DNA of 64,000 bases from Candidatus Binataceae bacterium (GTDB lineage Bacteria > Desulfobacterota > Binatia > Binatales > Binataceae), in assembly GCA_050736615.1 (NCBI GenBank), contig JBOHWL010000123.1, positions 27,384 to 91,383 of the forward strand, given 5' to 3'. The notes beneath the pieces are model-generated. The model was not told where the DNA came from and did not search any database. It was given only the letters and a program-made list of their open reading frames with translations. The stretch's first letter is position 1. Each line of letters opens with the position of its first letter. Of the stretch, positions 9,688-25,081 are shown in pieces. The translations under genes were made by a program, and so were the position numbers.

Positions 9688-10617
9688 TTGATGGATGGAA
9701 TTATCCTGGTCGATAAGCCGGCCGGTCCGACTTCCGCTGAAATCGTCCGCAAAATCAAGGCGGCCATCAGGGCGCACTCGCGTTCGGCGCCGCGCGTGGG
9801 TCATCTGGGCACGTTGGACCCGTTCGCCACCGGCCTTTTGCCCATCATGGTGGGTGAAGCAACCAAGCTGGCGCCTTTTATTCAGGCCGGTGAGAAGGAA
9901 TACGAGGGCACAATCGCGCTGGGAGTCGAAACTGACACCCTCGATCCAACTGGAACGCCGGTCCGGACTGCGGCGGTGCCAAGCTTGGACGCGGCTCGGC
10001 TGACGCGTCTGGCCGCGGCGTATAGTGGCAAAATCGAGCAGGTCGCGCCGATCTTTTCGGCAATCAAGCGCGGTGGAGTGCCACTCTACAAGCGCGCTCG
10101 CCAGGGCGAGGAGATTGTCCCACCCCGGCGCTCGGTCGAGATTATGCGGCTCGAACTGGAGGCGGCCGATCCCGCACATTTGCGCTTTTTCGTAGTGTGT
10201 TCCGGCGGCACCTATATTCGTTCGCTTGCTCGCGACATTGGCGCGGAACTTGGCAGCGCGGCGCATCTGGCGTCGCTGCGCCGGATGCGCAGTGGCGGTT
10301 TCCGTGTCGAGCGCGCGTGCTCGTTCGAACAAGTGCTGCGTGGTTTGGAAAGCGGCACGGGCCCGCCGCTCATCGCTCCGCGCGAGGCGTTGCCCACGCT
10401 TGCGGAGGTGGAAATCGATGCCGCGCGCGAAGAACGCCTGCGTTATGGCGATGCGCGCGCGCTTGACGGCATGGTGCCGTCCGGCGCCGGCTTGTTCAAG
10501 GTAATTGCGCGTGGCGAGCTTGCCGCCATCGCGCAAGCGAACTCGCGCCTCACCGCGACTATCGCCCGGATTTTCAACCGGGAGACCGGGGGCGAACCTC
10601 AGATTGGCATCCGATAG
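9688..10617 (+). CDS. truB: tRNA pseudouridine(55) synthase TruB
   Basis: GIILVDKPAGPTS...VGHLGTLDPFATGLLPIMVGEATK is the catalytic-Asp motif of TruB. Confidence 0.92.
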   Translation: MMDGIILVDKPAGPTSAEIVRKIKAAIRAHSRSAPRVGHLGTLDPFATGLLPIMVGEATKLAPFIQAGEKEYEGTIALGVETDTLDPTGTPVRTAAVPSLDAARLTRLAAAYSGKIEQVAPIFSAIKRGGVPLYKRARQGEEIVPPRRSVEIMRLELEAADPAHLRFFVVCSGGTYIRSLARDIGAELGSAAHLASLRRMRSGGFRVERACSFEQVLRGLESGTGPPLIAPREALPTLAEVEIDAAREERLRYGDARALDGMVPSGAGLFKVIARGELAAIAQANSRLTATIARIFNRETGGEPQIGIR

Positions 10618-12434
10618 CCATAGAATTCATGGTCTTCGTTATAGCCGCCCTCGCCGGCGCCGAGATGGGAGAAATCTCTTACGAACTCGATAGCCTCAAT
10701 CCATTTGACTTGTTTGAAACCGAGTTCGTTTTCGCAGCGTAGCCGTAACGGAGCACCATACAGCACGCTGACCGGCGCTCCGTTCATTTCGTAAGCAAGC
10801 ATAGTCAGATGGTGGCGCATATTTTCAATTTTGTGGACATCATAGTAACGGCCCCCTTCCGAACCGTCTGCAAATGAGTAAAAGACCGCGTAGCGCGCTT
10901 CGGGTTGGGGCTTGACTAGCTCGAGAATGTAGCGCATTGGCACGCCGCCCCATTTTGCTACGCCGGACCATCCCTGGATGCAGAAGTGGGCGGTGATCTG
11001 CTCCTGCTTCGGCATCGCTTTTAACTCCGCGAATGAAAATATCCTTGGATTCGCTACGATCCCGTCGATGCGCAAGGTGTAATTCGCAAAATTATCTTGA
11101 ACGAGCGCATCGAATTCGCGGGAGTTCGGCATCGTGCCGTTGGGCCAGAAATGCGGAGAAATATCGGCTTCGGTGAACTGATTATTTGGATCCCACCATT
11201 CTGACAAACCCTTTATCCAACCAATCAGGAATTGCCCGGTTTTCTGCACCAGCCTTGCATGCCGCAGCGTTAGCGGTGTCGCGATGACCCACATCACGAT
11301 CACCAACGCCATCGCGACTCCTATGATTATGAAACCGAGGTAGCCGTTGTTGTTCACGCCGGCGAACATATTATTCGCGTTCTGCCGCAATCCGGTGATG
11401 AGAATCATCGTGACATGCACGAAGATGAAGAAGACAAACCAGCAGAACACGATGAAGTGAATCGAGCGCGCCACCTGGCGGTGGACAACCCTGCCGAACC
11501 AGCCGAGCCGGTTCGAGATCGCGGGGGATTGCATCAGGCCGGTGGTGATTGCGAGCGGTGCCGCAATGAACACGGTTACAAAATAAGAAAGCAATTGCAG
11601 GCTGTTGTAACGAACCCAGCTGTCGTTAACCGGAAATGCCAGCGACATGTACTGCAACGCGGTTGATAACGAATTGGGGATAACCCCCCATGTGCGCGGC
11701 ACCAGCCGCTGCCATTGATTGGTCGCGAACAGCATCACGTAAAACGCCACGCCGTTGATGACCCACAACATGTCACAGGAAAAATGCCACCATCGCGCCA
11801 AGCCGATCGAGTGACGAATGCCCGGAATGCCGAGCCATCCGGGCAAGGTGACGGCATCATCCTTCGCCGTCCAGATGCGATCCGTTGGAACCTCGCGTTG
11901 AAAGCGAAGCCATTCGGTGCCCGGTGTGCAATCACGGTTCCAATAAAGACGGGGGTGGTCGGCGAGGATTTGGATACCGGCCCGGAGAATCAGAAACATC
12001 AGGAATAGATTGAAAAAGTGCTCCAACCGCAACCACAGCGGGAAACCGGAGTAAGCAATCGGTACCGCGGTCTGACCCGGATAACGGACCAGAAACTCCT
12101 TGACTGCGGGGATTTGCCGCACCTCTTGCGCGACCGGAACTCCGATCGCAAGGAACGCGATACCGATGGGGATGAACCACGCTAGATTGAACCAACGTTT
12201 GCCCAACCGGACCCGCGGCATGACACCCCAGTGCTGCGGTACCCAATGGGTTAGAAGCACCCGGTCATCCGCGTGCGTGAGTTGCTCCTCAAGTGGTTCC
12301 AGGCGCTCGTCGGCATGTTCCATCGCTTCGATGATCGATCCGTACCGGCGTCGATGCAACTTTTCATCGCGCTCCCGGTAGCAGCGTAAAGCGCAAGACG
12401 GATAGGTGAAGTGTTCGTCAGCGAATGTCCGCAA
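10599..12434 (-). CDS. Fusion protein: N-terminal multi-pass membrane (cytochrome b-like, His-rich TM helices) domain plus C-terminal molybdopterin-dependent oxidoreductase (sulfite oxidase/MsrP-like) domain
   Basis: C-terminal AHFCIQGWSGVAKWGGVPMRYILELV...LAYEMNGAPVSVLYGAPLRLRCENELGFKQVKWIEAIEFV is the MsrP/YedY-type Mo domain. The N-terminal roughly 400 aa are hydrophobic helices. Confidence 0.7.
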   Translation of the reverse strand: MRTFADEHFTYPSCALRCYRERDEKLHRRRYGSIIEAMEHADERLEPLEEQLTHADDRVLLTHWVPQHWGVMPRVRLGKRWFNLAWFIPIGIAFLAIGVPVAQEVRQIPAVKEFLVRYPGQTAVPIAYSGFPLWLRLEHFFNLFLMFLILRAGIQILADHPRLYWNRDCTPGTEWLRFQREVPTDRIWTAKDDAVTLPGWLGIPGIRHSIGLARWWHFSCDMLWVINGVAFYVMLFATNQWQRLVPRTWGVIPNSLSTALQYMSLAFPVNDSWVRYNSLQLLSYFVTVFIAAPLAITTGLMQSPAISNRLGWFGRVVHRQVARSIHFIVFCWFVFFIFVHVTMILITGLRQNANNMFAGVNNNGYLGFIIIGVAMALVIVMWVIATPLTLRHARLVQKTGQFLIGWIKGLSEWWDPNNQFTEADISPHFWPNGTMPNSREFDALVQDNFANYTLRIDGIVANPRIFSFAELKAMPKQEQITAHFCIQGWSGVAKWGGVPMRYILELVKPQPEARYAVFYSFADGSEGGRYYDVHKIENMRHHLTMLAYEMNGAPVSVLYGAPLRLRCENELGFKQVKWIEAIEFVRDFSHLGAGEGGYNEDHEFYGYRMPI

Positions 12435-12629
12435 GTCTGAGTGATGGAAGAGCGTTGAAGCGGACTTTTGATTTTCGGCGGTAATGATAGCGGGCCGTGC
12501 TCATAGCGGAGCGAAACGTGCTATGTCGTTTTCTGCATAACTCGTCCGCCAGCGATTGCTTGCGCGGCTCGGGCCACGGCCAAACTCGGCGACCCAGCGC
12601 ACGACCGCCCGAGGCAGGAGTATCGAGCG

Positions 12630-14477
12630 ATGACCAACAATGAACGGCAAGGATCAGCCCATACTTACGACGTCATAGTCGAGCGAGACGTGATGGTCGC
12701 GGTGCGCGACGGGGTGCGGCTGGCCACTGATGTCTATCGTCCGTCGCTCGCCGGCGCGGCCGTGGCAGCCCGTTTTCCAGCTATCATCGAGCGCACTCCG
12801 TACGATAAAGACTCGCCGCGTTTTGTCCTTCATGCGCGCTTCTTCGCGCAACATGGTTATGTCGTCCTGATGCAGGACGTGCGCGGGCGCGGAAAGTCCG
12901 GCGGGGAATGGCATGCGTTCGCGCGCGAGGCCCCCGACGGCTACGACACGATTGAATGGGCCGCCGCGCAGCCGTGGTGTACCGGCAAGATTGGCACAAT
13001 AGGCACCTCGTACATGGCGGCGGTGCAGAGCGCCGCGGCCACACTTAACCCGCCCCATCTGGCGGCAATGTTCGTCACCGAGGGGCCGTCGGATTATTAC
13101 TCGTGCTCGATGCGCCATAATGGCGCGCTCGAACAGCGCTTCCTCATCTATGCCTTCCACATGGCGGTGAGCAGCCCGGAGGCGCGCGCCGACCCGGCCC
13201 TGCGATTGGCGCTGCGGGAGGCGCGCGACAACCTCGGGCAATGGCTCAAGCGTCTGCCGCTCAAACCGGGCGCCTCGCCTCTGCGCCTGCTGCCGAATTA
13301 CGAGCGGTGGGCGCTGGATCTCCAATCGCGCGCTACTTATGACGAATATTGGACTCAACGTGGCTACGCGATTCATGAATATTATGACGAGCACGCCGAC
13401 GTGCCGACGGTCTATTTCGGCTCATGGTACGACTCGTACGCGCGCGCGACCGTAGAAAATTTCATCGCACTCAGTCGTCGTAAACGCAGTCCGCAGCGGT
13501 TAATCATGGGGCCGTGGCTTCATGGCGTGCGGGCCGATGATGACGGCGCCGGCGAGGTTTACTTCGGACCGGCCGCGCTCGAAAATTACGACAGCCTCCG
13601 CCTGCGATGGTTCGATCAATGGTTGAAAGGATTGGAGACTGGTGTGGCGTTGGAGACACCCGTGCGCATCTTTGTCATGGGCGGCGGCGGCGGCCGCAAA
13701 TTCGTCGACGTGCTGGGCCTCAATGGCCGCCTGGAGCACGGCGGCGATTGGCGCGACGAAAAGGAATGGCCGCTGGCACGCGCCCGCGATACTCCGTTTT
13801 ATTTGCATCAGGACGGTGCCCTCGCCATCAATAAGCCAACCGTTGCGGCAAGCGTGACGACCTATCGCTTCGACCCGCGCGAGCCGGTGCCGACGATCGG
13901 CGGATGTATTTCGGTGGGATTCGAGTTCATGCCGGCGGGTGGCTTCGATCAACGCACGCGTCCGGCCACCTTTGGGACTGACGAATCATTGCCGCTGGCC
14001 GCGCGTCCGGACGTGCCGACGTTCATAAGCGAGCCGCTTCAGCACGACGTCGAAGTGACCGGCACTATCACTGTAAATCTGTGGATATCATCTTCGGCCA
14101 CCGATACGGACTTTACCGCCAAGCTTATCGACGTATACCCGCCGAATGCGGATTATCCCGGCGGCTACGCGCTCAATTTGACCGATTCGATCATTCGTGC
14201 GCGTTATCGGAATTCCTATTCAAAACCGGAGTTGATGAGGCCGGGAGAAATCTATCAGCTCAGTTTTCAGCTCTATCCAATCAGCAACCGCTTCATGAGC
14301 GGGCATCGGCTGCGCGTGGATATTTCTTCGTCGAACTTTCCCCGCTTCGACGTGAATTTGAACAACGGTGGGCCACTGGGAGTCCCCGGCCCGATCGTGA
14401 TCGCCGACAACACTATTCATCATGACGCCGCCCATCCGTCGCATCTGCTGATGCCGGTGATTGCCACATCTGGCTGA
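12630..14477 (+). CDS. CocE/NonD family hydrolase (S15 X-Pro dipeptidyl-peptidase-like)
   Basis: VRDGVRLATDVYRP, ERTPYDKD, GYVVLMQDVRGRGKSGGEW, GTSYMA nucleophile motif, C-terminal beta-sandwich. Confidence 0.85.
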   Translation: MTNNERQGSAHTYDVIVERDVMVAVRDGVRLATDVYRPSLAGAAVAARFPAIIERTPYDKDSPRFVLHARFFAQHGYVVLMQDVRGRGKSGGEWHAFAREAPDGYDTIEWAAAQPWCTGKIGTIGTSYMAAVQSAAATLNPPHLAAMFVTEGPSDYYSCSMRHNGALEQRFLIYAFHMAVSSPEARADPALRLALREARDNLGQWLKRLPLKPGASPLRLLPNYERWALDLQSRATYDEYWTQRGYAIHEYYDEHADVPTVYFGSWYDSYARATVENFIALSRRKRSPQRLIMGPWLHGVRADDDGAGEVYFGPAALENYDSLRLRWFDQWLKGLETGVALETPVRIFVMGGGGGRKFVDVLGLNGRLEHGGDWRDEKEWPLARARDTPFYLHQDGALAINKPTVAASVTTYRFDPREPVPTIGGCISVGFEFMPAGGFDQRTRPATFGTDESLPLAARPDVPTFISEPLQHDVEVTGTITVNLWISSSATDTDFTAKLIDVYPPNADYPGGYALNLTDSIIRARYRNSYSKPELMRPGEIYQLSFQLYPISNRFMSGHRLRVDISSSNFPRFDVNLNNGGPLGVPGPIVIADNTIHHDAAHPSHLLMPVIATSG

Positions 14478-14645
14478 TTCACATCGCCGGCGATCGACCG
14501 CATTAGCGTAAAGCCATTCTTTAGCATCGGACAGCAGATGGCTGGCGTTCTGGTCCCAATTGTCCAACGAGTCGCGTGCTTTACAACGGTCGTGGATGCG
14601 CGCTAATGCGGATGAAGCATCGCCGGTCGAATTTCGGGGAGCAGC

Positions 14646-16247
14646 ATGATGGGAAATCGCAGCCGCTATTCCGATCAGGGCGGGATCAGGGTTGCCGCCG
14701 GATGGACACTGAGCCGACTGACCCCGCCGAGCACCTTGTTCGGCGCCAACGGCATGCGCTTCGGACCTGACGGCCGCCTGTATGTCGCGCAGGCTTTCGG
14801 CAGTCAGGTTAGCGCGGTGGATATCGGCAGCGGGGCGGTCAGCACGGTCAGTCCAATCGGCGGCGAGATAGTCGCCCCGGATGACCTCGCCTTCGACTCT
14901 CGCGGCGTACTGTACGCGACCGAGGTGATGAGTGCGCGGGTATGCGCCCGCTCGCCCAACGGCGCGTTGCGCATCATCGCCGACCAAGTGCCCGGCGCCA
15001 ACGGCATCACCGCGTATCAGGAGCGCCTGTTCATGGATGAATGCCGTCCCGACGGCCGCCTCTTCGAACTGTTTATAGACGGCCGCGCACCGCGCCTGTT
15101 GGCGGAAAATCTGCCCTTGCCCAACGCGTTGGCAGTTGGCCCCGACGGCAATATCTACTTTCCCGCGATCGGCGCCAACGAAATCTGGCGCGTGCCATTG
15201 TCCGGCGGCCGCCCCGAGCGCTTTACGAATCAAGTCGCGATCCCGACGGCGGTGAAATTCAACAGCAAGGGCGAGCTACTTTCCACCCAAGGCCGCAGCG
15301 GAGAAATTCTGCGCTTCGATTTGCAAAGCGGCAATTGTACCGTGGCCGCGACGATGCGTGCGGGTATCGATAATTTCGTCCTGACCGGCGATGACCGTAT
15401 GTTCGTCTCACATTTCGTTGACGGCGGCGTCGCCGAAATCATGGCGGATGGACGCGAGCGGGTGCTGGTCGCGCAAGGCTTTCTTGGTCCACTGGATATC
15501 GAAATAGCTGGCGATGGGCGGCTCTACGCGGCTGACGGTATCAGTATGGCGGTGGTGGAGCGCGACGGCGCCTCACGCCGGGTCGGTATGCTGTTCGACG
15601 GCCACTTCCCTGGCTTCGTGCGCGGACTGGCGGCTGCGAGTTATGGCGCGCTGGTCACCACTACTTCCGCCGGTGCGGTTGTCACCTACCATCCGGTCAC
15701 TCATGAAATGACGGAGCATGCCGCCGATTTGCAGGAGCTGTATGGCGTTGCAGTGGCGCCCAGCGGCGCGATCGTGGTGGCCGAGGGAGGCGCTGGACGC
15801 GTGCTGCAAATCGACCGCGCCGAGGTCAGTGTGCTCGCGCGCGGCCTTGACCGCCCCACTGGTATCGCCAGCGGCGGCGATGGTTCATGTTATGTCTGCG
15901 AAGCTGGCGCGGGGCGTGTCGTCGAGGTTAACGACGGCGTTAACCCCGTACTGGGGGGGTTGCGTGAGCCGCAAGGATTATTGCGCGTAGGCGATGAACT
16001 GTTCGTGATCGACGCGGGTGCGCACGAGCTCATCGTATTTTCTTTGCGCAGCAGGCAGCGCGAAATCGTCGCTTCCAATTTGCCCGTGGGCGCGCCTCCT
16101 GGCGTGACGCCCAAAACCCTGATGGGTATTGCGGGACTGCTGCCCGGCCCGCTGCGTCCGTTCGCCGGCCTTACGCGCGCGCCTGACGGTACCATCTACG
16201 TTGCCGCTGACGGCGACGGCAGCGTATTGTCTGTGCGCCGCGCTTAA
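14646..16247 (+). CDS. SMP-30/gluconolactonase/LRE-like beta-propeller protein (two propeller halves)
   Basis: Repeated P(D)G/LYV(A)/GANGI blade-like segments (RFGPDGRLYVAQ, FDSRGVLYATE, GPDGNIYFPA, APDGTIYVAADGDG). Confidence 0.55.
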   Translation: MMGNRSRYSDQGGIRVAAGWTLSRLTPPSTLFGANGMRFGPDGRLYVAQAFGSQVSAVDIGSGAVSTVSPIGGEIVAPDDLAFDSRGVLYATEVMSARVCARSPNGALRIIADQVPGANGITAYQERLFMDECRPDGRLFELFIDGRAPRLLAENLPLPNALAVGPDGNIYFPAIGANEIWRVPLSGGRPERFTNQVAIPTAVKFNSKGELLSTQGRSGEILRFDLQSGNCTVAATMRAGIDNFVLTGDDRMFVSHFVDGGVAEIMADGRERVLVAQGFLGPLDIEIAGDGRLYAADGISMAVVERDGASRRVGMLFDGHFPGFVRGLAAASYGALVTTTSAGAVVTYHPVTHEMTEHAADLQELYGVAVAPSGAIVVAEGGAGRVLQIDRAEVSVLARGLDRPTGIASGGDGSCYVCEAGAGRVVEVNDGVNPVLGGLREPQGLLRVGDELFVIDAGAHELIVFSLRSRQREIVASNLPVGAPPGVTPKTLMGIAGLLPGPLRPFAGLTRAPDGTIYVAADGDGSVLSVRRA

Positions 16248-16307
16248 CGAGTGACAATAACTGGCCGCGTCCTTGGCGAGGTTCATACGAGTCGACAAAT
16301 TGCAAAA

Positions 16308-16841
16308 CTATCGCGGATTCGAGGCTTCAATAGAATAATCGAAAAAGGCCCGTTTCACCCCTGCTTGGCGCTCAAGTGCCATATTCAGAATCACCATAGC
16401 TTCAGCAATAAGACGATCATCCCGGTCTGGATTGCCGACCGGTAAAGGGCCACTGGGGAATTTCCCGCCATGAAATAGATTGTTCCGAAGCCGGCCAACC
16501 GCGAGAAACAAGTCGCTTACTGTCTCTATAGCGTTCTCCTTTTTCCAAGCAAGGCGATTCTCCTTCGATACTTGGGTCTTTGGCGGCGTGTGTAGAAAAG
16601 TATCCATTTTTCCCGAGTTCCGCATTTCGTTTAGAAATGCCGGCCCAAGACATCTAGCGAACGCCTTCCAATCAGGACTCGCCAGATACAAGTTCTTGGC
16701 GTTTTGTTGGGGCGCACTCCACCGCGCGGATTTGAGAAAACCGCCGCGTTTCAGAGCGTACTCGAAACGAGAGAAAAACACGAAGAACTCAATTCCCTTA
16801 GCTGGTAAATAATTGATCAAATCATCTATTGACGTTCCCAT
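16308..16841 (-). CDS. Hypothetical protein with HEPN-like R-x4-H-G motif (RNNLFHGG) in a low-GC islet; candidate solo HEPN RNase/abortive-infection-type protein
   Basis: 177-aa ORF in a clearly AT-richer segment (about 16260-17040). GRLRNNLFHGGKF fits the HEPN R-x4-6-H motif (RiboL-PSP/DUF4145-like R-N-x-x-x-H-G). No partner ORF is adjacent. Confidence 0.4.
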   Translation of the reverse strand: MGTSIDDLINYLPAKGIEFFVFFSRFEYALKRGGFLKSARWSAPQQNAKNLYLASPDWKAFARCLGPAFLNEMRNSGKMDTFLHTPPKTQVSKENRLAWKKENAIETVSDLFLAVGRLRNNLFHGGKFPSGPLPVGNPDRDDRLIAEAMVILNMALERQAGVKRAFFDYSIEASNPR

Positions 16842-17098
16842 ATCTGATCCGATCTTTTAAGATTTCTGGCAGCTAATTTCAATCGTTGCGAGTAGCTGGG
16901 CGTGCCCGCAGCATGTTAAGCTTCCAAAAACGCGATTAAATCTCGAAACCTTTGATCCTGTCTCCTCGGACCGCCACCCCAGGACCGATGTCCCAGCCTA
17001 CCTAAGACGTGAGTTCATCGACCGTAGGTACCCTCAAAAGGTGGGTGGTGAGCCAACCTTCCGCATGGATTCGCGCTTGGTGCGTCCGCTAGCGACCA

Positions 17099-17386
17099 CT
17101 AATGACGGTCGTGGTCAGCGTGATGCTCGTCTCCTCCTTCATGGTGGCGTTCGGCGTGTTCATGGTCATCGCGGTCTCGTCGTGGGGCTCGCGTTTCATG
17201 ATCGTGATCATAATGGCCGTAATAGACTGGTGGTCCGGGCGCGTAGGCATAAAACGGATATTCATAGCCTGACGCCGGATAACCATACCCTGGTCCAGCG
17301 TAGCGGTCTTCGAAACAGCCTTGCAGCGCCGCCGTTGTGAGCACGATCATCAAAGCCACCAGGACCGCAAGGATTTTAGACTTCAT
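17099..17386 (-). CDS. Small lipoprotein with Gly/Tyr/Pro-rich middle and His/Asp/Glu-rich C-terminal tail (putative metal-binding)
   Basis: MKSKILAVLVALMIVLTTAALQGC is a signal peptide plus lipobox. The C-terminus is HYDHDHETRAPRRDRDDHEHAERHHEGGDEHHADHDRH. Start at the internal ATG 17386. Confidence 0.5.
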   Translation of the reverse strand: MKSKILAVLVALMIVLTTAALQGCFEDRYAGPGYGYPASGYEYPFYAYAPGPPVYYGHYDHDHETRAPRRDRDDHEHAERHHEGGDEHHADHDRH

Positions 17387-17675
17387 AGGATATGCACCTC
17401 GCACAGAAGAGGAGCATCGCCCGTACCGTCCAGGAAAACGTGGCAAAACCAAATCGGAGATGCTGACGCGGTGAAAAACGTCAATCGCGAGATTGCTCCG
17501 ACTTCGGAGATGGTGCGCCGATTTGACATTTTGCGCGCCCGCCTGAATGTCTGTTAATCTGAAGGACGCCAATTAACCGCTCGGCGCGACCCTTCCATGA
17601 TAAACTTTACACGCGCTGAAGCCTCTGGTAGCCTTGCCGTTTGAATCAAAAAACAAGGGAAAATACGTAGACCTG

Positions 17676-17945
17676 ATGCCCCTCGAGGTTGCCCGCAAAC
17701 GGGAAATCATCACGACGTTCGCCAACTCGGCGAATGATAGCGGTTCATCCGAAGTTCAGATTGCGCTGTTCAGCGCGCGTATCGAGCAACTGACCGCGCA
17801 TCTCAAGACTCACGCGAAAGACCATCATTCGCGTCGTGGGCTGTTGCGTCTGGTTGGCAAACGGCGGCGCTTGCTGGACTATCTGCATGGGCAGGACTTC
17901 GACCGCTACAAAGGGCTGATTGAAAAGCTGGGCATCCGCAGATAG
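17676..17945 (+). CDS. rpsO: 30S ribosomal protein S15
   Basis: [70 protein letters not shown] is S15 at about 89 aa. The upstream extension of ORF 17634 is rejected. Confidence 0.92.
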
Positions 17946-21624: not shown

Positions 21625-24600
21625 TTAGATTTTTCCGACGAGCGCGACGAGCCTGACGCCCTTCTTTTCTTTGGTCCGCTTCACTTTCCCTGGCTTCTTG
21701 GCTGGCTTTTGTTTCACCTTTTTTACCTTGACGAGCCCTCTGAGCGACACGGTCTGGGGTGAATTTAAAGCATTATCGTAAATTTCCAGACTGCCTCCCT
21801 GAAGGCCGCCCGAGGTCCCGCTGAAGGTCATTGCAATCACGCAGCGTCCTCCCGGTGGCAACAGGAGGCCCGGCGTGCATGAGCTGGACGAGATCGCGAA
21901 ACCGGAGCCATCGCCGGTGATTGCGACGTTCTCGATGGTGACGGCCGCAGCGCGTTTGCTTCGCGGATTGATAAGGTTGACGACGCGCGGCGCACTGACT
22001 GCGGGCGACGTCCGCGCCAACTGAACGCGAAAACCAACAACCCTCGGACGCGTCACCAGATTAACCGCGACTTGCGGAAGGGAAAGCGTTGGGGTGGGCG
22101 TGGGCTGCCGCGGCGGAGCCAATGTTGGCGTGGGATCAGGGGTCAGGGTGGGTGTGCTGGCGGGAGTGACCGTTGGAGTAGCCGTCGGCGTGGGAGTGGA
22201 GGTGGGCGTGACGGTGGGTGTCGGTGCGGTAGTTGGCGTTATGGTGACAGTCGCGGTCGGTGTTGCCGAAGGAGTCGGCGTGGCATTGTCGAACTCCAGC
22301 ACGCGGTTGTTGCCGGCATCCGCGACATAAAGGTTTTGCGAGGCGTCGATCGCGGTCGCTCCGGCGTAGGCCGGCGTTGCGCCAGGATTGGTTTGAAAGC
22401 ACAGGCTGGCGGGACTGGCGTCGTCGGGTCCGTTGCCTAGATTGCATGAAGAGCCGCTGAAGTCGGTCTGTCCGAGGACTTGGGTGGCCGAAACGCTGCC
22501 CGGCGCATATTTCAGGATGCGATTGTTGCCACCATCGACGATATAGACGCTGTTATCGCTCGCAACCGCCACGCCGACCGGATCGCAGAGCGTACTCGCG
22601 CTCGCGGCTCCGCTCGAATTGCAAGTGCCACTTGAGAAGTCTTTGCCATCGGTGCTTTGTCCGAATTCGAGCTTAGCGGGGAAACCGCCGGAGGGCATGG
22701 GGCTCGGCAATGGCATGTTGAACTCAAGTACGCGGCTGTTGCCGGTGTCGGCCACGTACAGATCGCCTTTGGAGTCTGCCGCAACCGCATCCGGATTACA
22801 CATGAGGTTGGCTGCGGGGGTGCTACCGCTGCCATCGGTGTTGCATTCAAGAGTGTTGAATGCGCCCGCCTGTCCGAAAACCACTGAGGCGGGTTCCGGC
22901 TGGACAGTTGACGGTGGAAATTCGAGTACCCGGCTATTCTTGGTGTCGGCGACAAAAAGGTCTCCACTACTATCTAGGGCAACGCCCTGAGGGTCACATA
23001 GGTCGGACTGATCTAGTGTCGCATTTAGACTGGAGGAATAATTGTAATCACACGCATTCGTGCTGAAATCGCCTTGGCCGAAGACGCGATCGGCGGCATA
23101 CGGAGAATTGGTCGTCGAAGGATCCGTGAATTCGAGCACCCGATTGTTGAGCGGATCGGCTACATACAAATGATTCTTTCCGCTAACGGTTCCGAAGGCC
23201 AAACCCGGCTGTGACGTGCCGTCCGCGTTGCTGAAACACAAGGTCAAGGCGGTCGGTGGAGCGGCTTGTGGACTGCCGTTGCACAGACTTGACTTGAAAT
23301 CGGGCTGGCCAATTACCAGGGCGGGCAGCTTCTTTCCTATGAAGTCCGCTCGGCTTTTCCAACCCAGCACCCGGTTATTGCCCACGTCGGCGACGTAGAT
23401 GTAGCCGCTGTTCGGATCGGTTGCGATTCCCGCCGGATCGATGACGCCATTGGCATCGGTGAAATTGGGCGTCGTGGCGGAAAAACCGATTTGGCCCGCA
23501 ACGTAATCCGCGGCGGTGTCGCCAGCGGTTGCGGTTGGGCTGGGTTGCGGAGAGGCGTTGCCAGGCGCCAAATAGACCACCACGCGATTATTGGCCGCGT
23601 CAGCGACCATAAGATCGCCGGCGGTGTCGGCAGTCAGCCCCAGCGGAAAACCGAGCGGGTTCGATGGAGTAATGTCGAGATCGGTGTTTAGCTTCAACAC
23701 CGGGGCCGAGCTGCTGGTGCTACCTCGTGCATACTCGATAATCGTGCTAGTGCGCGGATTGGGCGGTGGCGGCGGTGGCGCAGACACCATATAGAGATTA
23801 TCGCCCGCGTCAAGCGCGATTCCCGCTGGCCCCACGTTATTGCCATGAGTCACAGTCGCATTCGGATCATTCGAAGGATTGTTAGCGGCGCCGAACGGAC
23901 CTGGATATTCGACCACACGATTGTTGCCAGGGTCGGAGGCGTAGAGATTGCCGCTCGTATCGACGCCGAGCCCCACTCCGTGAAAACCTTGCAGGCATAA
24001 TAAATTCAGGGCCGTTGCGGGTGGGGCACTGCCTTGGTCGCATTGGCTTGCGCCAACACCCGTTTGGCCGAACACCACGTCGGCGGTGACGTCGCCGGCG
24101 CCGGATGGAGACGGATTCGCGATAGGATCGAAATATTCCAGGATGCGGTTGTTGCCGGTATCGGCGACAAACAGGTTGTAGTTCTCATCGACGGCCAGAC
24201 CTTCGGGTGCACATAGATCTGTCGCATTGACGGTACCGCTGCTATCACAAGTCGCGGTGGTGGCATTAGGTTGGCCAAATACCATTCGGGCACTTAAAGG
24301 TGAGTTCTGATAGGGCGCCGCGAACAGGAGCACGCGGTTGTTGCCGGTATCAGCAACATAAAGATTATCTTTTCCGTCCACCACGAGCCCTTCGGGATCG
24401 CACAACGTGGTGGCGTTGGGAGCCGGCAGGCCTTGATTGCACCGGTAAGAGTAGACGTCCGCTTGGCCGATGACCAAATCCGCCGCGTTTCCGCCAATGA
24501 ACGAGTCGAAACTCTTCCATCCGAGTACGCGATTATTGCCCGAGTCCGCCACGAAAATGTGACCCGCGTCGTCGAGCGCGATAGCCGACGGTCGGTCCAA

Positions 24601-24774
24601 TCCTTGGGCATCGACGAAATTCGGCGCCGAGTTGGACAAATCGATTTGGCCGAAGACGTGGCTGGCAATGGGATCATTCGGCTGCGTCGTGCTAGCAGCC
24701 AGATACCCGGCGAAAGCTAGAAGAGCGGCGCCGAGCGCCACTATTCCGCCCGGCAATGAACGTGTGCGCTTCAT
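21625..24774 (-). CDS. Large secreted NHL-repeat beta-propeller protein with Pro/Thr-rich linker, C-terminal beta-sandwich-like domain and Lys-rich tail
   Basis: Signal peptide MKRTRSLPGGIVALGAALLAFAGYLAAS. More than 15 repeats of the (A)DxGNNRVLE(F/Y) NHL motif. Linker PTPSATPTATVTITPTTAPTPTVTPTSTPTPTATPTVTPASTPTLTP. Tail KVKKVKQKPAKKPGKVKRTKEKKG. Confidence 0.8.
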   Translation of the reverse strand: MKRTRSLPGGIVALGAALLAFAGYLAASTTQPNDPIASHVFGQIDLSNSAPNFVDAQGLDRPSAIALDDAGHIFVADSGNNRVLGWKSFDSFIGGNAADLVIGQADVYSYRCNQGLPAPNATTLCDPEGLVVDGKDNLYVADTGNNRVLLFAAPYQNSPLSARMVFGQPNATTATCDSSGTVNATDLCAPEGLAVDENYNLFVADTGNNRILEYFDPIANPSPSGAGDVTADVVFGQTGVGASQCDQGSAPPATALNLLCLQGFHGVGLGVDTSGNLYASDPGNNRVVEYPGPFGAANNPSNDPNATVTHGNNVGPAGIALDAGDNLYMVSAPPPPPPNPRTSTIIEYARGSTSSSAPVLKLNTDLDITPSNPLGFPLGLTADTAGDLMVADAANNRVVVYLAPGNASPQPSPTATAGDTAADYVAGQIGFSATTPNFTDANGVIDPAGIATDPNSGYIYVADVGNNRVLGWKSRADFIGKKLPALVIGQPDFKSSLCNGSPQAAPPTALTLCFSNADGTSQPGLAFGTVSGKNHLYVADPLNNRVLEFTDPSTTNSPYAADRVFGQGDFSTNACDYNYSSSLNATLDQSDLCDPQGVALDSSGDLFVADTKNSRVLEFPPSTVQPEPASVVFGQAGAFNTLECNTDGSGSTPAANLMCNPDAVAADSKGDLYVADTGNSRVLEFNMPLPSPMPSGGFPAKLEFGQSTDGKDFSSGTCNSSGAASASTLCDPVGVAVASDNSVYIVDGGNNRILKYAPGSVSATQVLGQTDFSGSSCNLGNGPDDASPASLCFQTNPGATPAYAGATAIDASQNLYVADAGNNRVLEFDNATPTPSATPTATVTITPTTAPTPTVTPTSTPTPTATPTVTPASTPTLTPDPTPTLAPPRQPTPTPTLSLPQVAVNLVTRPRVVGFRVQLARTSPAVSAPRVVNLINPRSKRAAAVTIENVAITGDGSGFAISSSSCTPGLLLPPGGRCVIAMTFSGTSGGLQGGSLEIYDNALNSPQTVSLRGLVKVKKVKQKPAKKPGKVKRTKEKKGVRLVALVGKI

Positions 24775-25081
24775 TGGATCGAAAGGCGAGAGCAACTCTA
24801 ACCTGCTATTTCTTACATTAACTTTCTATAGTTTAGGCGTCTTAGCATCTGTGTTCATTTATTTCAACTGATTTGCAATGGAAAGTAACAATAAGTGCCT
24901 TTCCGGTTTGATTCGCAATCTGGCGCGAGTTTTTCGTGATTTTTTCCGTTTGCGCGCCAGCGCGAAAGATGCCAAGGGATGATCGAAATATCTTAAAGAT
25001 CTTGTCGCATGACGCGATCGGCACGGAAGCCGTGCCGGGCTGTGAAACAATTCAATCCGCCGGATTTAAGGAGAACGGGCA

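What the first reader, a model, noticed from the sequence alone, without database searches (positions are those of the whole stretch)
16260..17040. AT-rich islet with a solo HEPN-like ORF inserted between truB and rpsO
A segment markedly lower in GC than its surroundings holds a 177-aa minus-strand ORF with GRLRNNLFHGGKF (R-x4-H-G), the catalytic signature of HEPN RNases (RiboL-PSP/DUF4145-like). No cognate antitoxin or MNT partner is adjacent. Solo HEPN proteins are typical abortive-infection/defence genes. It sits inside the otherwise conserved truB-rpsO-pnp neighbourhood.
Basis: partly seen in the sequence, partly recalled or inferred. Interest (0 to 1): 0.62.

Follow-up and report, generated by a model that had tools for sequence, protein, structure and literature searches.

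The report
Unnamed solo HEPN-like RNase gene
A small, foreign-looking gene near the ribosomal S15 gene encodes a member of a widespread but unnamed family that carries the sequence hallmarks of HEPN RNA-cutting enzymes and travels alone on plasmids, prophages and defence islands, so it is probably a stand-alone toxin or anti-phage RNase, a kind of gene already known.

Summary
The ORF is real: 16308-16841, minus strand, 177 aa. It lies in the lowest-GC stretch of the window (GC 0.49 against 0.60; GC3 0.51 against 0.62-0.72).

RLRNNLFHGGK is the core of a family of about 2,500 clusters (50% identity). In 135 diverse members H124, E27, K31, G125 and R140 never vary, and R119 and N120 are kept in 133.

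The family meets the published HEPN hallmarks:
- RN-x3-H at the end of the third long helix.
- An upstream E-x3-K.
- A predicted helical bundle with an insert before that helix.

No partner gene is conserved across 167 loci. The commonest neighbours are integrases, recombinases, BrnT and PIN toxins and type I restriction genes. Copies sit on ~5 kb enterobacterial plasmids and in an E. coli prophage.

Two details of the finding are wrong. truB is 5.7 kb and three genes away, and the RiboL-PSP/DUF4145 assignment is not supported.

Verdict: a probable solo HEPN RNase, horizontally acquired. A defence role is inferred only. It is a new member of a known kind.

The parts
16308..16841 (-). 177-aa ORF, a member of an unnamed stand-alone HEPN-like family (PHROG 19013, function unknown)
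   Evidence: The ORF is listed. It is 100% identical to a Candidatus Binataceae MAG hypothetical protein, and 177 homologues were found. The profile finds 2,477 clusters at 50% identity. It matches phrog_19013 at E=3.6e-19. The AF2 model has pLDDT 85 and pTM 0.81.
16470..16487 (-). Codons for R119-N-N-L-F-H124, the R-N-x3-H motif (putative catalytic Arg/His) at the C-terminal end of predicted helix 108-124
   Evidence: The sequence was read. Conservation in 135 members: H124 in 135, R119 in 133, N120 in 133. The position matches the HEPN definition in PMC3710099.
16749..16763 (-). Codons for E27-Y-A-L-K31, an E-x3-K motif in the first long helix (FSRFEYALK)
   Evidence: E27 and K31 are kept in 135 of 135 members. 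E-x3-[KR] is the second conserved HEPN feature according to PMC3710099.
16422..16424 (-). Codon for R140, an invariant Arg at the start of the last long helix. It follows the low-confidence loop 125-141.
   Evidence: R140 is kept in 135 of 135 members. In hhalign it aligns with the invariant Arg of an MtlR/DUF4145-clade HEPN family.
16842..17098 (-). 257-bp spacer upstream of the ORF, presumed to hold its own promoter (inferred, not detected)
   Evidence: It contains no ORF of 30 aa or more on the gene's strand. It has no stable RNA fold (z=0.87). No sigma-70 consensus site and no terminator were found, and there was no Rfam match.
16260..17040 (.). Low-GC islet (GC 0.494), the lowest-GC stretch of its length in the window
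   Evidence: No flanking direct or inverted repeats suggest an insertion scar.

Best explanation
The ORF encodes a minimal, stand-alone protein of the HEPN superfamily. These are metal-independent endoribonucleases.

Inferred mechanism: the protein dimerises, as other HEPN proteins do, so that two R119-N120-x3-H124 motifs form a composite active site. Each motif sits at the end of helix 3. The invariant E27/K31 of helix 1 and R140/K127 would assist. The enzyme would then cleave RNA, most likely tRNA anticodon loops or other translation RNAs as in ApeA and HepS, leaving 2',3'-cyclic phosphate ends.

The gene was acquired horizontally and carries no partner gene. Control must therefore be built into the protein (oligomeric state, or a trigger bound by the conserved W58 / PP86-87 / Q90 / W99 insert and beta-hairpin) or come from its expression. 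Its most likely biological role is a conflict gene: a single-gene abortive-infection or toxin-type RNase carried by mobile elements.

Shown: the ORF, its atypical composition, family-wide invariance of the motifs, the predicted helical topology with the motif in the HEPN position, the solo architecture, and mobile or defence-island contexts.

Inferred: the HEPN fold itself, RNase activity, dimerisation, the substrate, the trigger, and the anti-phage role.
For: Motifs:
- R-N-x3-H, with the polar residue after R, is kept in 133 of 135 members. E-x3-K is kept in 135 of 135.
- Both are the defining HEPN sequence features (PMC3710099).

Topology:
- Two AF2 models (pLDDT 85 and 89) give long helices, a short helix plus beta-hairpin insert before the motif helix, and the motif at the end of that helix going into the loop.
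- This is where HEPN motifs lie.

Profile hits:
- Pfam, below threshold: the only families hit by more than 2 of 135 members are HEPN_Apea (4 members, best E 1.9e-4) and HEPN_Swt1 (4). Abi_2 is hit by 2 and DUF4145 by 1.
- The family consensus and two other members have HEPN_Apea as top hit over about 100 of 136 profile positions.
- PADLOC: 9 of 12 families hit carry HEPN domains (CARF-HEPN, Csx1, Cas13a).
- hhalign against an MtlR/DUF4145-clade HEPN family aligns R, N, H and R140 at E=4e-4. That comparator matches the MtlR structure 6kcr at E=2.3e-5.

Mobility and solo state:
- No conserved neighbour in 74 and then 167 loci. The commonest neighbours are tyrosine integrase (8 loci), BrnT (5), PIN (3), HsdR (3) and serine recombinase (3).
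- One near relative lies in a TIR / PLD / AbiU2 / type I restriction island.
- Related proteins (55% identity or more) occur in different phyla with unrelated flanks.
- 32 plasmids carry it, including 4.9-6.1 kb Citrobacter, Klebsiella and Enterobacter plasmids.
- It is a moron in the baseplate module of a prophage found in 25 of 5,426 E. coli genomes. 28 IMG/VR contigs carry it.
- GC3 is 0.51 against 0.62-0.72 for neighbours.

Precedents: solo HEPN proteins are proven abortive-infection anticodon nucleases, namely HepS (PMC13043305) and ApeA.
Against: - No model in Pfam, NCBIfam or PADLOC reaches its threshold.
- Foldseek with two confident models found nothing in the PDB (best E 0.15-0.6, TM 0.25 or less). 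No HEPN structure came up apart from AbiV at rank 32, E about 1. BFVD also gave nothing.
- Profile searches of PDB sequences gave nothing significant.
- hhalign against HEPN_AbiU2 gave probability 0.1%. Against the MtlR/DUF4145-clade family it gave only 35%, limited to the motif region.
- The conserved Glu sits in the first long helix, whereas the 2013 survey places it in helix 2.
- No known defence model matches, and no experiment exists for any member.
- In the window the gene is not in a defence island. Its neighbours are metabolic or housekeeping genes.
- One subclade has lived inside a ribosomal operon across several genera, and two of its members have lost the Arg. That is unusual for a fast-turnover defence gene.
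Confidence: 0.55

Rival explanations
1. It is a HEPN-type RNase, but it serves as an addiction or selfish toxin (or a remnant of a toxin-antitoxin module) that stabilises plasmids, prophages and islands, rather than as an anti-phage system.
For: - It is cargo on very small plasmids, next to CcdAB in one case.
- It often lies beside BrnT and PIN toxin-antitoxin genes and integrases.
Against: - No conserved antitoxin-like neighbour in 167 loci.
- No structured RNA or small ORF upstream in the window.
- Addiction needs an unstable antidote, and none is visible.
Confidence: 0.15
2. It is not a HEPN enzyme. It would be a helical protein of another fold in which the conserved R/H/E/K residues bind a nucleic acid or ligand, or catalyse a different reaction.
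For: - No significant structural or whole-domain profile match to any HEPN.
- The hhalign match is confined to about 37 columns.
- Two fusions join the domain to DUF6884, a YaaA-like DNA-binding module. This would also fit a DNA-directed role.
Against: - All four sequence and topology hallmarks of HEPN are met.
- Independent sub-threshold hits fall on more than 9 different HEPN models, and on almost nothing else repeatedly.
Confidence: 0.17
3. It is a domesticated RNA-processing or translation-linked factor rather than a conflict gene, with the link to ribosomal protein genes being functional.
For: - Here the gene lies about 0.8 kb upstream of rpsO-pnp.
- A subclade (62-81% identity) lies between rpmD and rplO of the spc operon in five alphaproteobacterial species-representative genomes, consistent with vertical inheritance.
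Against: - No other locus of 93 then held has rpsO, pnp or truB nearby.
- Most contexts are mobile or defence-like.
- Distribution is sporadic and flanks are unrelated even among close relatives.
- Composition in the window is foreign.
Confidence: 0.08
4. It works on the phage side, as a prophage- or phage-encoded RNase for host takeover or counter-defence.
For: - PHROG 19013 match.
- It sits within a prophage baseplate module, co-directional and overlapping the upstream gene's stop.
- 28 IMG/VR contigs carry it.
Against: The great majority of copies are chromosomal or plasmid-borne outside recognisable phages. Only four phage genome records carry it, all from one set of E. coli phage isolates.
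Confidence: 0.05

Closest known systems
HepS (HEPN Solo defence element, Gifsy-1 prophage of Salmonella; PDB 9OIJ/9OIK; PMC13043305)
   Same: - A single small HEPN-domain protein (homologues under 250 aa) with an R-x4-H motif near residue 100-120.
- No conserved partner gene.
- Often carried on prophages.
- It gives a worked-out model for how a solo HEPN is held inactive (a closed tetramer) and triggered by a phage protein to cut tRNA anticodon loops.
   Different: - No detectable sequence or structural similarity was found. 9OIJ and 9OIK are absent from the PDB sequence hits at E up to 10 and from the 50 Foldseek matches listed per search, of 267 and 299 with E up to 10.
- The present family has its own conserved insert (W58, PPxxQ, beta-hairpin, W99) and an HGGK...R tail.
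- It spreads far beyond Bacillaceae and Enterobacteriaceae, including into archaea.
ApeA / Pfam HEPN_Apea (PF18739)
   Same: - It is the best-scoring Pfam model: E 1.9e-4 to 0.05 in several members and the family consensus, covering about 100 of 136 profile positions.
- ApeA is a single-gene abortive-infection HEPN tRNA anticodon nuclease.
   Different: - Scores are below the gathering cut-off (about 15 bits, against 24.4).
- ApeA is about 580 aa, with N-terminal and Mid domains that form the ligand pocket, and it assembles into decamers. This protein is the HEPN-like module alone (177 aa).
- No PADLOC model of any kind, ApeA included, is matched by the window protein at E up to 10, and ApeA is not among the 12 families that family members hit.
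HepT/MNT (DUF86) type II/VII toxin-antitoxin toxins, the 'minimal HEPN'
   Same: Small stand-alone HEPN size, with an R-x4-H catalytic motif on helix 3.
   Different: - No adjacent MNT nucleotidyltransferase in the window or as a recurrent neighbour.
- The motif continues H-G-G-K rather than the H-x-Y that I recall for HepT.
- No Pfam hit to the HEPN or DUF86 models.
AbiD/AbiF (Abi_2), Swt1-like and DUF4145/MtlR-clade HEPN families
   Same: - Sub-threshold Pfam hits.
- hhalign aligns the phi-x-x-phi-R-N-x-phi-x-H core and the following Arg with an MtlR/DUF4145-clade family.
- AbiD and AbiF are single-gene lactococcal Abi proteins.
   Different: - All hits are below threshold.
- Those proteins are longer (about 200-350 aa) with different flanking helices.
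- Only the motif region aligns.
CARF-HEPN effectors (Csm6/Csx1) and Cas13 HEPN domains
   Same: - An R-N-x3-H-G type motif.
- Repeated sub-threshold PADLOC hits.
- Weak PDB hits to CRISPR-associated chains 8y7f, 8y75, 8y6z and 8y7g on the helix 3 to helix 4 region.
   Different: - No CARF or other sensor domain.
- No CRISPR-Cas genes turned up in the neighbourhoods examined.
- E-values are 0.006-0.4 only.

Membership tests
HEPN superfamily (as defined in Anantharaman et al. 2013, PMC3710099) | Conserved R-x4-6-H motif | tested here: met
   The motif is R119-x4-H124. H is kept in 135 of 135 members and R in 133 of 135. The two R-to-Q exceptions are both in the spc-operon subclade.
HEPN superfamily (as defined in Anantharaman et al. 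2013, PMC3710099) | Polar residue (N, D or H) immediately after the Arg | tested here: met
   N120 is kept in 133 of 135 members. The criterion is stated.
HEPN superfamily (as defined in Anantharaman et al. 2013, PMC3710099) | Second conserved acidic residue upstream, typically in an E-x3-[KR] motif | tested here: met
   E27-x3-K31 is kept in 135 of 135 members. Caveat: it lies in the first long helix of the model, while the survey places the acidic residue in helix 2.
HEPN superfamily (as defined in Anantharaman et al. 2013, PMC3710099) | [quoted passage not shown] | tested here: met
   In the window protein the helix runs 108-124 with H124 as its last residue, followed by loop 125-141 and helix 142-158. 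Homologue P0007 shows the same: helix 96-112, motif 107-112.
HEPN superfamily (as defined in Anantharaman et al. 2013, PMC3710099) | [quoted passage not shown] | tested here: inconclusive
HEPN superfamily (as defined in Anantharaman et al. 2013, PMC3710099) | Significant profile match to an established HEPN family | tested here: inconclusive
   - Best single hit: HEPN_Apea at E=1.9e-4, one of 135 members scanned.
- Recurrent sub-threshold hits to Apea, Swt1, Abi_2, DUF4145, CARF-HEPN, Csx1 and Cas13a.
- hhalign gave 35% probability and E=4e-4 against an MtlR/DUF4145-clade family.
- hhalign gave 0.1% against AbiU2.
HEPN superfamily (as defined in Anantharaman et al. 2013, PMC3710099) | Metal-independent RNase activity from a dimeric composite site | not testable with these tools
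   This needs biochemistry or a multimer structure.
Pfam HEPN_Apea (PF18739) / ApeA defence system | Score above the Pfam gathering cut-off (24.4 bits) | tested here: not met
   The window protein has no hit at E up to 1. The three matches whose scores were printed (the family consensus and two members) score 14.5-15.8 bits. One search gives only the best E-value among the 135 members scanned, 1.9e-4, without a bit score.
Pfam HEPN_Apea (PF18739) / ApeA defence system | Protein of about 580 aa with N-terminal and Mid domains forming the ligand pocket | tested here: not met
   The protein is 177 aa and consists of the HEPN-like module only. The ApeA architecture is described. The window protein matches no PADLOC model, and ApeA is not among the families hit by its relatives.
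HepT/MNT toxin-antitoxin | Adjacent MNT nucleotidyltransferase antitoxin gene | tested here: not met
   The neighbours are an NHL propeller and a lipoprotein. No recurrent partner was found in 167 loci.
HepS (solo HEPN Abi) | Stand-alone HEPN under 250 aa, no conserved partner, frequently prophage-borne | tested here: met
   The criteria come from the paper.
HepS (solo HEPN Abi) | Sequence or structural homology to HepS (PDB 9OIJ) | tested here: inconclusive
   9OIJ and 9OIK are not among the PDB sequence hits at E up to 10, nor among the 50 Foldseek matches listed in each search. I could not verify that the entry is in the local copies, and I could not obtain the HepS sequence. The LT2 Gifsy-1 record has no ORF with R100-x4-H105.
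   No RiboL-PSP hit at any threshold. DUF4145 was hit by one member in each scan, at E=0.11-0.12.
Known anti-phage defence systems (PADLOC-DB 2.0) | Match to any defence-system model | tested here: not met
   The window protein has no hit at E up to 10. Family members give only sub-threshold hits.

The most novel reading that the evidence does not exclude
This would be a new, widespread family of self-sufficient 'mini-HEPN' RNases whose sensor is built into the conserved W58 / PPxxQ / beta-hairpin / W99 insert. In some lineages the gene would be wired to the translation apparatus. In one alphaproteobacterial subclade, seen in five species-representative genomes, it has been kept between rpmD and rplO, antisense to the spc ribosomal operon. 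Read-through from the ribosomal operon would then silence it, and a collapse of host transcription (phage shut-off or the stringent response) would release the toxin. The copy next to rpsO-pnp here, facing a convergent upstream gene with no detectable terminator, could be a second instance of such transcription-coupled control.
Probability: 0.1. Interest if true: 0.7.

Novelty: new member of a known kind. Interest (0 to 1): 0.4.

Why it matters
If the assignment holds, this adds an unannotated family to the catalogue of single-protein HEPN RNases. The family has about 2,500 clusters at 50% identity, spans bacteria and archaea, occurs on plasmids and prophages, and has no Pfam, NCBIfam or PADLOC model. 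Solo HEPN proteins have only recently been shown (HepS, ApeA) to act as complete sense-and-kill immune proteins.

The family is unusually small. A sensor would therefore have to be part of the catalytic domain itself, which makes it a compact model for how HEPN RNases are kept off.

Homologues are ready for testing in E. coli prophages and in ~5 kb enterobacterial plasmids. For the window itself, the result is an ordinary horizontally acquired accessory gene. It is not a change to the truB-rpsO-pnp operon.

Tried and rejected
Structure searches:
- Foldseek against the PDB with two confident AF2 models, and against BFVD, found nothing significant. The top hits, all non-significant, were ribosomal protein uS7.

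Sequence and profile searches:
- HMM searches of PDB sequences with A1 and A2 found nothing significant.
- Pfam, NCBIfam and PADLOC gave no hit for the window protein.
- hhalign against a 13-sequence HEPN_AbiU2 alignment gave probability 0.1%.
- hhalign against an MtlR/DUF4145-clade family matched only locally.

Search for a partner or control element:
- Upstream genes in the P0005 and Citrobacter loci are unrelated to each other and to the family.
- Neighbour clustering over 74 and then 167 loci found no partner above 5% of loci.
- An RNA antitoxin or leader is rejected: no Rfam match, no stable fold and no small ORF in the 257-bp spacer.
- No flanking repeats, and no terminator or promoter consensus.

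Comparative genomics of the truB-rpsO interval:
- Exact look-ups of the window's S15 protein and of the ORF itself are not on record.
- The metagenome scan found no relative above 49% identity.
- The nearest relatives (P0002, P0003, L099/L211) sit in different contexts.
- No other locus has rpsO, pnp or truB nearby.

Literature:
- Full-text search for the family's motifs returned nothing.
- The supplement held for the 2013 HEPN survey contains no alignments.
- I could not retrieve a HepS sequence from the LT2 Gifsy-1 record.

Other: the 893-aa ORF in L057 has no Pfam domain, so I treated it as an artefactual upstream extension.
Full report
**What is at the coordinates.**
A 177-aa ORF with an ATG start runs from 16841 down to 16308 on the minus strand. 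Its product is identical to a hypothetical protein of a Candidatus Binataceae MAG. Residues 116-128 read GRLRNNLFHGGKF, and the codons for R119-N-N-L-F-H124 lie at 16470-16487.

The stretch 16260-17040 has GC 0.494. It is the lowest-GC stretch of that length in the whole 64-kb window (mean 0.602, sd 0.039). The ORF's GC3 is 0.506, against 0.62-0.72 for all neighbouring genes except a small lipoprotein gene. The ORF, the motif and the compositional anomaly are therefore real.

A lone R-x4-H is not unusual by chance in 177 residues. Its significance comes from conservation, described below.

**Neighbourhood.**
The conserved block rimP-nusA-infB-(small ORF)-rbfA-truB ends at 10617. It is followed by:
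- a molybdopterin oxidoreductase/cytochrome b561 gene (10599-12434, minus strand);
- an S15-family peptidase (12630-14477);
- an NHL/SGL beta-propeller (14646-16247), which converges on the ORF with a 60-bp gap;
- the ORF itself;
- a 257-bp spacer;
- a gene for a ~95-aa His-rich lipoprotein (17099-17386, minus strand; MKSKIL...LQGC);
- rpsO (17676-17945), pnp and an M16 peptidase.

Five genes interrupt that interval, and only the ORF (and partly the lipoprotein gene) has foreign composition.

No MNT, antitoxin-like gene, integrase, tRNA-like RNA or Rfam match, terminator or flanking repeat is present. The spacer has no small ORF and no stable fold.

**The family.**
A search of 5.8 billion proteins gave 177 homologues, all unnamed and without Pfam domains. 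A profile search of 1.84 billion cluster representatives gave 2,477 clusters at E up to 1e-3 and 1,867 at E up to 1e-10. Nearly all are stand-alone proteins of 155-195 aa.

Conservation in an alignment of 135 diverse members, about 30-45% identical to the window protein:

| Residue(s) | Kept in |
|---|---|
| E27, K31, H124, G125, R140 | 135 of 135 |
| R119, N120, N121, L122 | 133 of 135 |
| W58, P86, P87, Q90, W99, G126, K127 | more than 94% |

The window protein carries every one of these residues and has the family's normal N-terminus, so it looks intact.

The family is in PHROGs as phrog_19013, function unknown (E=3.6e-19). It has no model in Pfam, NCBIfam or PADLOC.

**Is it HEPN?**
The 2013 survey of the superfamily (PMC3710099) gives these hallmarks:
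- a four-helix up-down bundle, frequently with an insert between helices 2 and 3;
- a polar residue (N, D or H) right after the Arg;
- often an upstream acidic residue in an E-x3-[KR] motif.

Two AlphaFold2 models were made, one of the window protein (pLDDT 85, pTM 0.81) and one of homologue P0007 (pLDDT 89, pTM 0.85). Both give the same order of elements:
- a long helix carrying FSRF-E-YAL-K;
- a second long helix;
- a short helix plus a beta-hairpin;
- a long helix ending exactly at the His of R-N-N-L-F-H;
- a low-confidence loop;
- a final long helix beginning at the invariant R140.

All the sequence hallmarks are met, and so is the position of the motif. One discrepancy remains: the Glu is in the first long helix, not 'helix 2'.

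Profile evidence is convergent but below threshold:
- Scanning 135 members one by one against Pfam at a lax cut-off, the only families hit by more than two members are HEPN_Apea (4 members, best E=1.9e-4) and HEPN_Swt1 (4). Abi_2 is hit by 2 and DUF4145 by 1.
- The family consensus, a Citrobacter plasmid member and a Methanosarcinaceae member each have HEPN_Apea as their top hit, over about 100 of 136 profile positions.
- The same exercise against PADLOC gives 12 families, 9 of which carry HEPN domains (five CARF-HEPN models, two Csx1, Cas13a).
- hhalign against a comparator family I built from a neighbouring gene aligns the helix-3 core, R, N, H and R140 at E=4e-4 but only 35% probability, and only locally. 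The comparator belongs to the MtlR/DUF4145 clade, and its profile matches the MtlR structure 6kcr at E=2.3e-5.

Evidence against:
- hhalign against HEPN_AbiU2 is null.
- PDB sequence searches are null, apart from four CRISPR-associated chains at E 0.2-0.4 on the same region.
- Foldseek finds no structural neighbour at all.

I conclude that superfamily membership is likely, about 0.8, but not proven. The family also belongs to none of the named HEPN families.

**Distribution and context.**
At least 477 of the GTDB species-representative genomes scanned encode a relative. They span many bacterial phyla and two archaeal orders. A further 430 metagenome stretches and 28 IMG/VR contigs were found.

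Thirty-two plasmids carry the gene. These include 4.9-6.1 kb Citrobacter, Klebsiella and Enterobacter plasmids, where it is one of a handful of cargo genes. In E. coli it is a moron inside the baseplate module of a prophage present in 25 of 5,426 complete genomes.

Neighbour clustering over 74 and then 167 non-identical loci found no partner gene in more than 5% of loci. The commonest neighbours, confirmed with Pfam, are:

| Neighbour | Loci |
|---|---|
| Tyrosine integrase | 8 |
| BrnT toxin | 5 |
| PIN toxin | 3 |
| Type I restriction HsdR | 3 |
| Large serine recombinase with DUF2924 | 3 |

One of the window protein's nearest relatives, split by a frameshift, lies between a TIR protein and DUF3800, PLD, HEPN_AbiU2 and a type I restriction system.

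Proteins 55% or more identical occur in different phyla, and Rhodobacterales members of one subclade share no flanks. This is the pattern of a horizontally mobile accessory gene that works alone.

**Mechanism (inferred).**
By analogy with characterised HEPN enzymes, the protein should dimerise so that two R-N-x3-H motifs form a metal-independent RNase site. E27/K31 and R140/K127 would complete the site, and cleavage would leave 2',3'-cyclic phosphate ends (general HEPN chemistry).

There is no antitoxin and no separate sensor domain. Control must therefore lie in the oligomeric state or in a trigger bound by the domain's own conserved insert. Precedents are HepS, a closed tetramer opened by a phage tail-tip protein, and ApeA, which is activated by a ligand in a pocket outside the active site. 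Both cut tRNA anticodon loops.

Two natural fusions place the domain after DUF6884, a YaaA-like nucleic-acid-binding module. This fits a nucleic-acid-directed effector.

None of these steps has been tested for any member of the family.

**Comparison with known systems, and novelty.**
In behaviour the closest known systems are HepS and ApeA, both single-gene HEPN abortive-infection nucleases. The gene fails membership of ApeA/HEPN_Apea on score, architecture and the PADLOC model. It fails HepT/MNT because there is no MNT gene. It fails RiboL-PSP and DUF4145 on score. Homology to HepS could not be shown.

I therefore classify it as a new, unnamed member family of a known kind, not as a new kind of system. 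The subfamily label and the operon description do not hold, and the defence role remains inference.

**A loose end.**
A subclade (62-81% identity) sits between rpmD and rplO, antisense to the spc ribosomal operon, in five alphaproteobacterial species-representative genomes. Two of its members have R-to-Q in the motif. Together with the rpsO-proximal copy here, this could hint at a link to translation genes or at control by operon read-through. However, no other locus is near rpsO, pnp or truB, so I treat it as a low-probability lead.

Noticed in passing
L005 6001-6504; also L051, L071, L073, L085: A subclade of the family (62-81% identity) is inserted between rpmD (L30) and rplO (L15), on the strand opposite to the tightly packed spc ribosomal operon. 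It occurs in five alphaproteobacterial (mostly Rhodobacterales) species-representative genomes, which suggests long vertical residence. Two of the five (L071, L073) have Gln in place of the motif Arg.
   Followed up: partly
P0121 (650 aa) and P0123 (332 aa): These are natural fusions of DUF6884 (PF21818, YaaA-like 'cantaloupe' fold, a proposed DNA-lesion or base-flipping module) to the N-terminus of this domain. By eye, P0121 also has an N-terminal region resembling a helix-hairpin-helix glycosylase with a Cys cluster. Pfam did not detect that region.
   Followed up: partly
window 17099-17386 (-): A small gene encodes a ~95-aa lipoprotein: signal peptide, LQGC lipobox, then a Tyr/Pro-rich and a very His/Asp-rich tail. 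Its GC3 of 0.52 is also below the window norm. It has no Pfam, NCBIfam or PADLOC match. The 157-aa ORF listed at 17099-17572 is an upstream over-extension of it.
   Followed up: partly
L211 8418-20522 (same contig as L099): This is a defence island: TIR protein, a frameshifted (split) copy of the family gene at 9693-9980 plus 10001-10522, DUF3800, a PLD-like protein, HEPN_AbiU2, and a type I restriction system (HsdM, HsdS, HsdR).
   Followed up: partly
L093 9001-9513 (E. coli WP3-W18-ESBL-08 prophage; protein WP_001551481.1): The family member sits inside a myovirus-type prophage tail and baseplate module. Its start overlaps the stop of the upstream gene, and it lies just before the spike protein gene. 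It is identical in 25 of 5,426 complete E. coli genomes, which makes it a convenient experimental handle.
   Followed up: partly
L062 645-1250, L075 2767-3372, L068 6457-7053, L184: In one Rhodobacterales subgroup a conserved 201-aa protein with no Pfam match starts 1 bp after the family gene's stop. This may be a lineage-specific partner.
   Followed up: no
L134 1545-2093 (-) and L169 806-1354 (-): In two metagenome contigs an unrelated-looking 182-aa ORF lies next to the family gene. It carries its own INELRNAIFHG motif (R-N-x3-H-G) and has no Pfam match. hhalign aligns only the motif (E about 9e-4, probability 23%). It may be a second, different mini-HEPN.
   Followed up: partly
models md9b3207dda9d and m7f95895c3020: In both Foldseek PDB searches the top hits, all non-significant, were dominated by ribosomal protein uS7 chains, which are helical bundles with a beta-hairpin arm. 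E was 0.15-3 and TM about 0.2 or less. This is probably a shared coarse topology only.
   Followed up: no
window 10599-16247 and 21625-24795: The truB-rpsO interval carries about 5.6 kb of non-canonical cargo of normal GC: a Mo-oxidoreductase/cytochrome b561 fusion, an S15 peptidase and an NHL propeller. A second, 1,056-aa NHL-repeat protein lies just beyond the M16 peptidase gene. The truB ORF (9688-10617) and the oxidoreductase ORF (10599-12434, opposite strand) overlap by 19 bp at their 3' ends.
   Followed up: no
L130 35980-36582 (-) (Gifsy-1, STM2620): This 200-aa 'conserved hypothetical bacteriophage protein' contains VRNPAFH (R-N-x3-H) at residues 43-49. It is not the published HepS, whose motif is R100-H105. 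It was not examined further.
   Followed up: no
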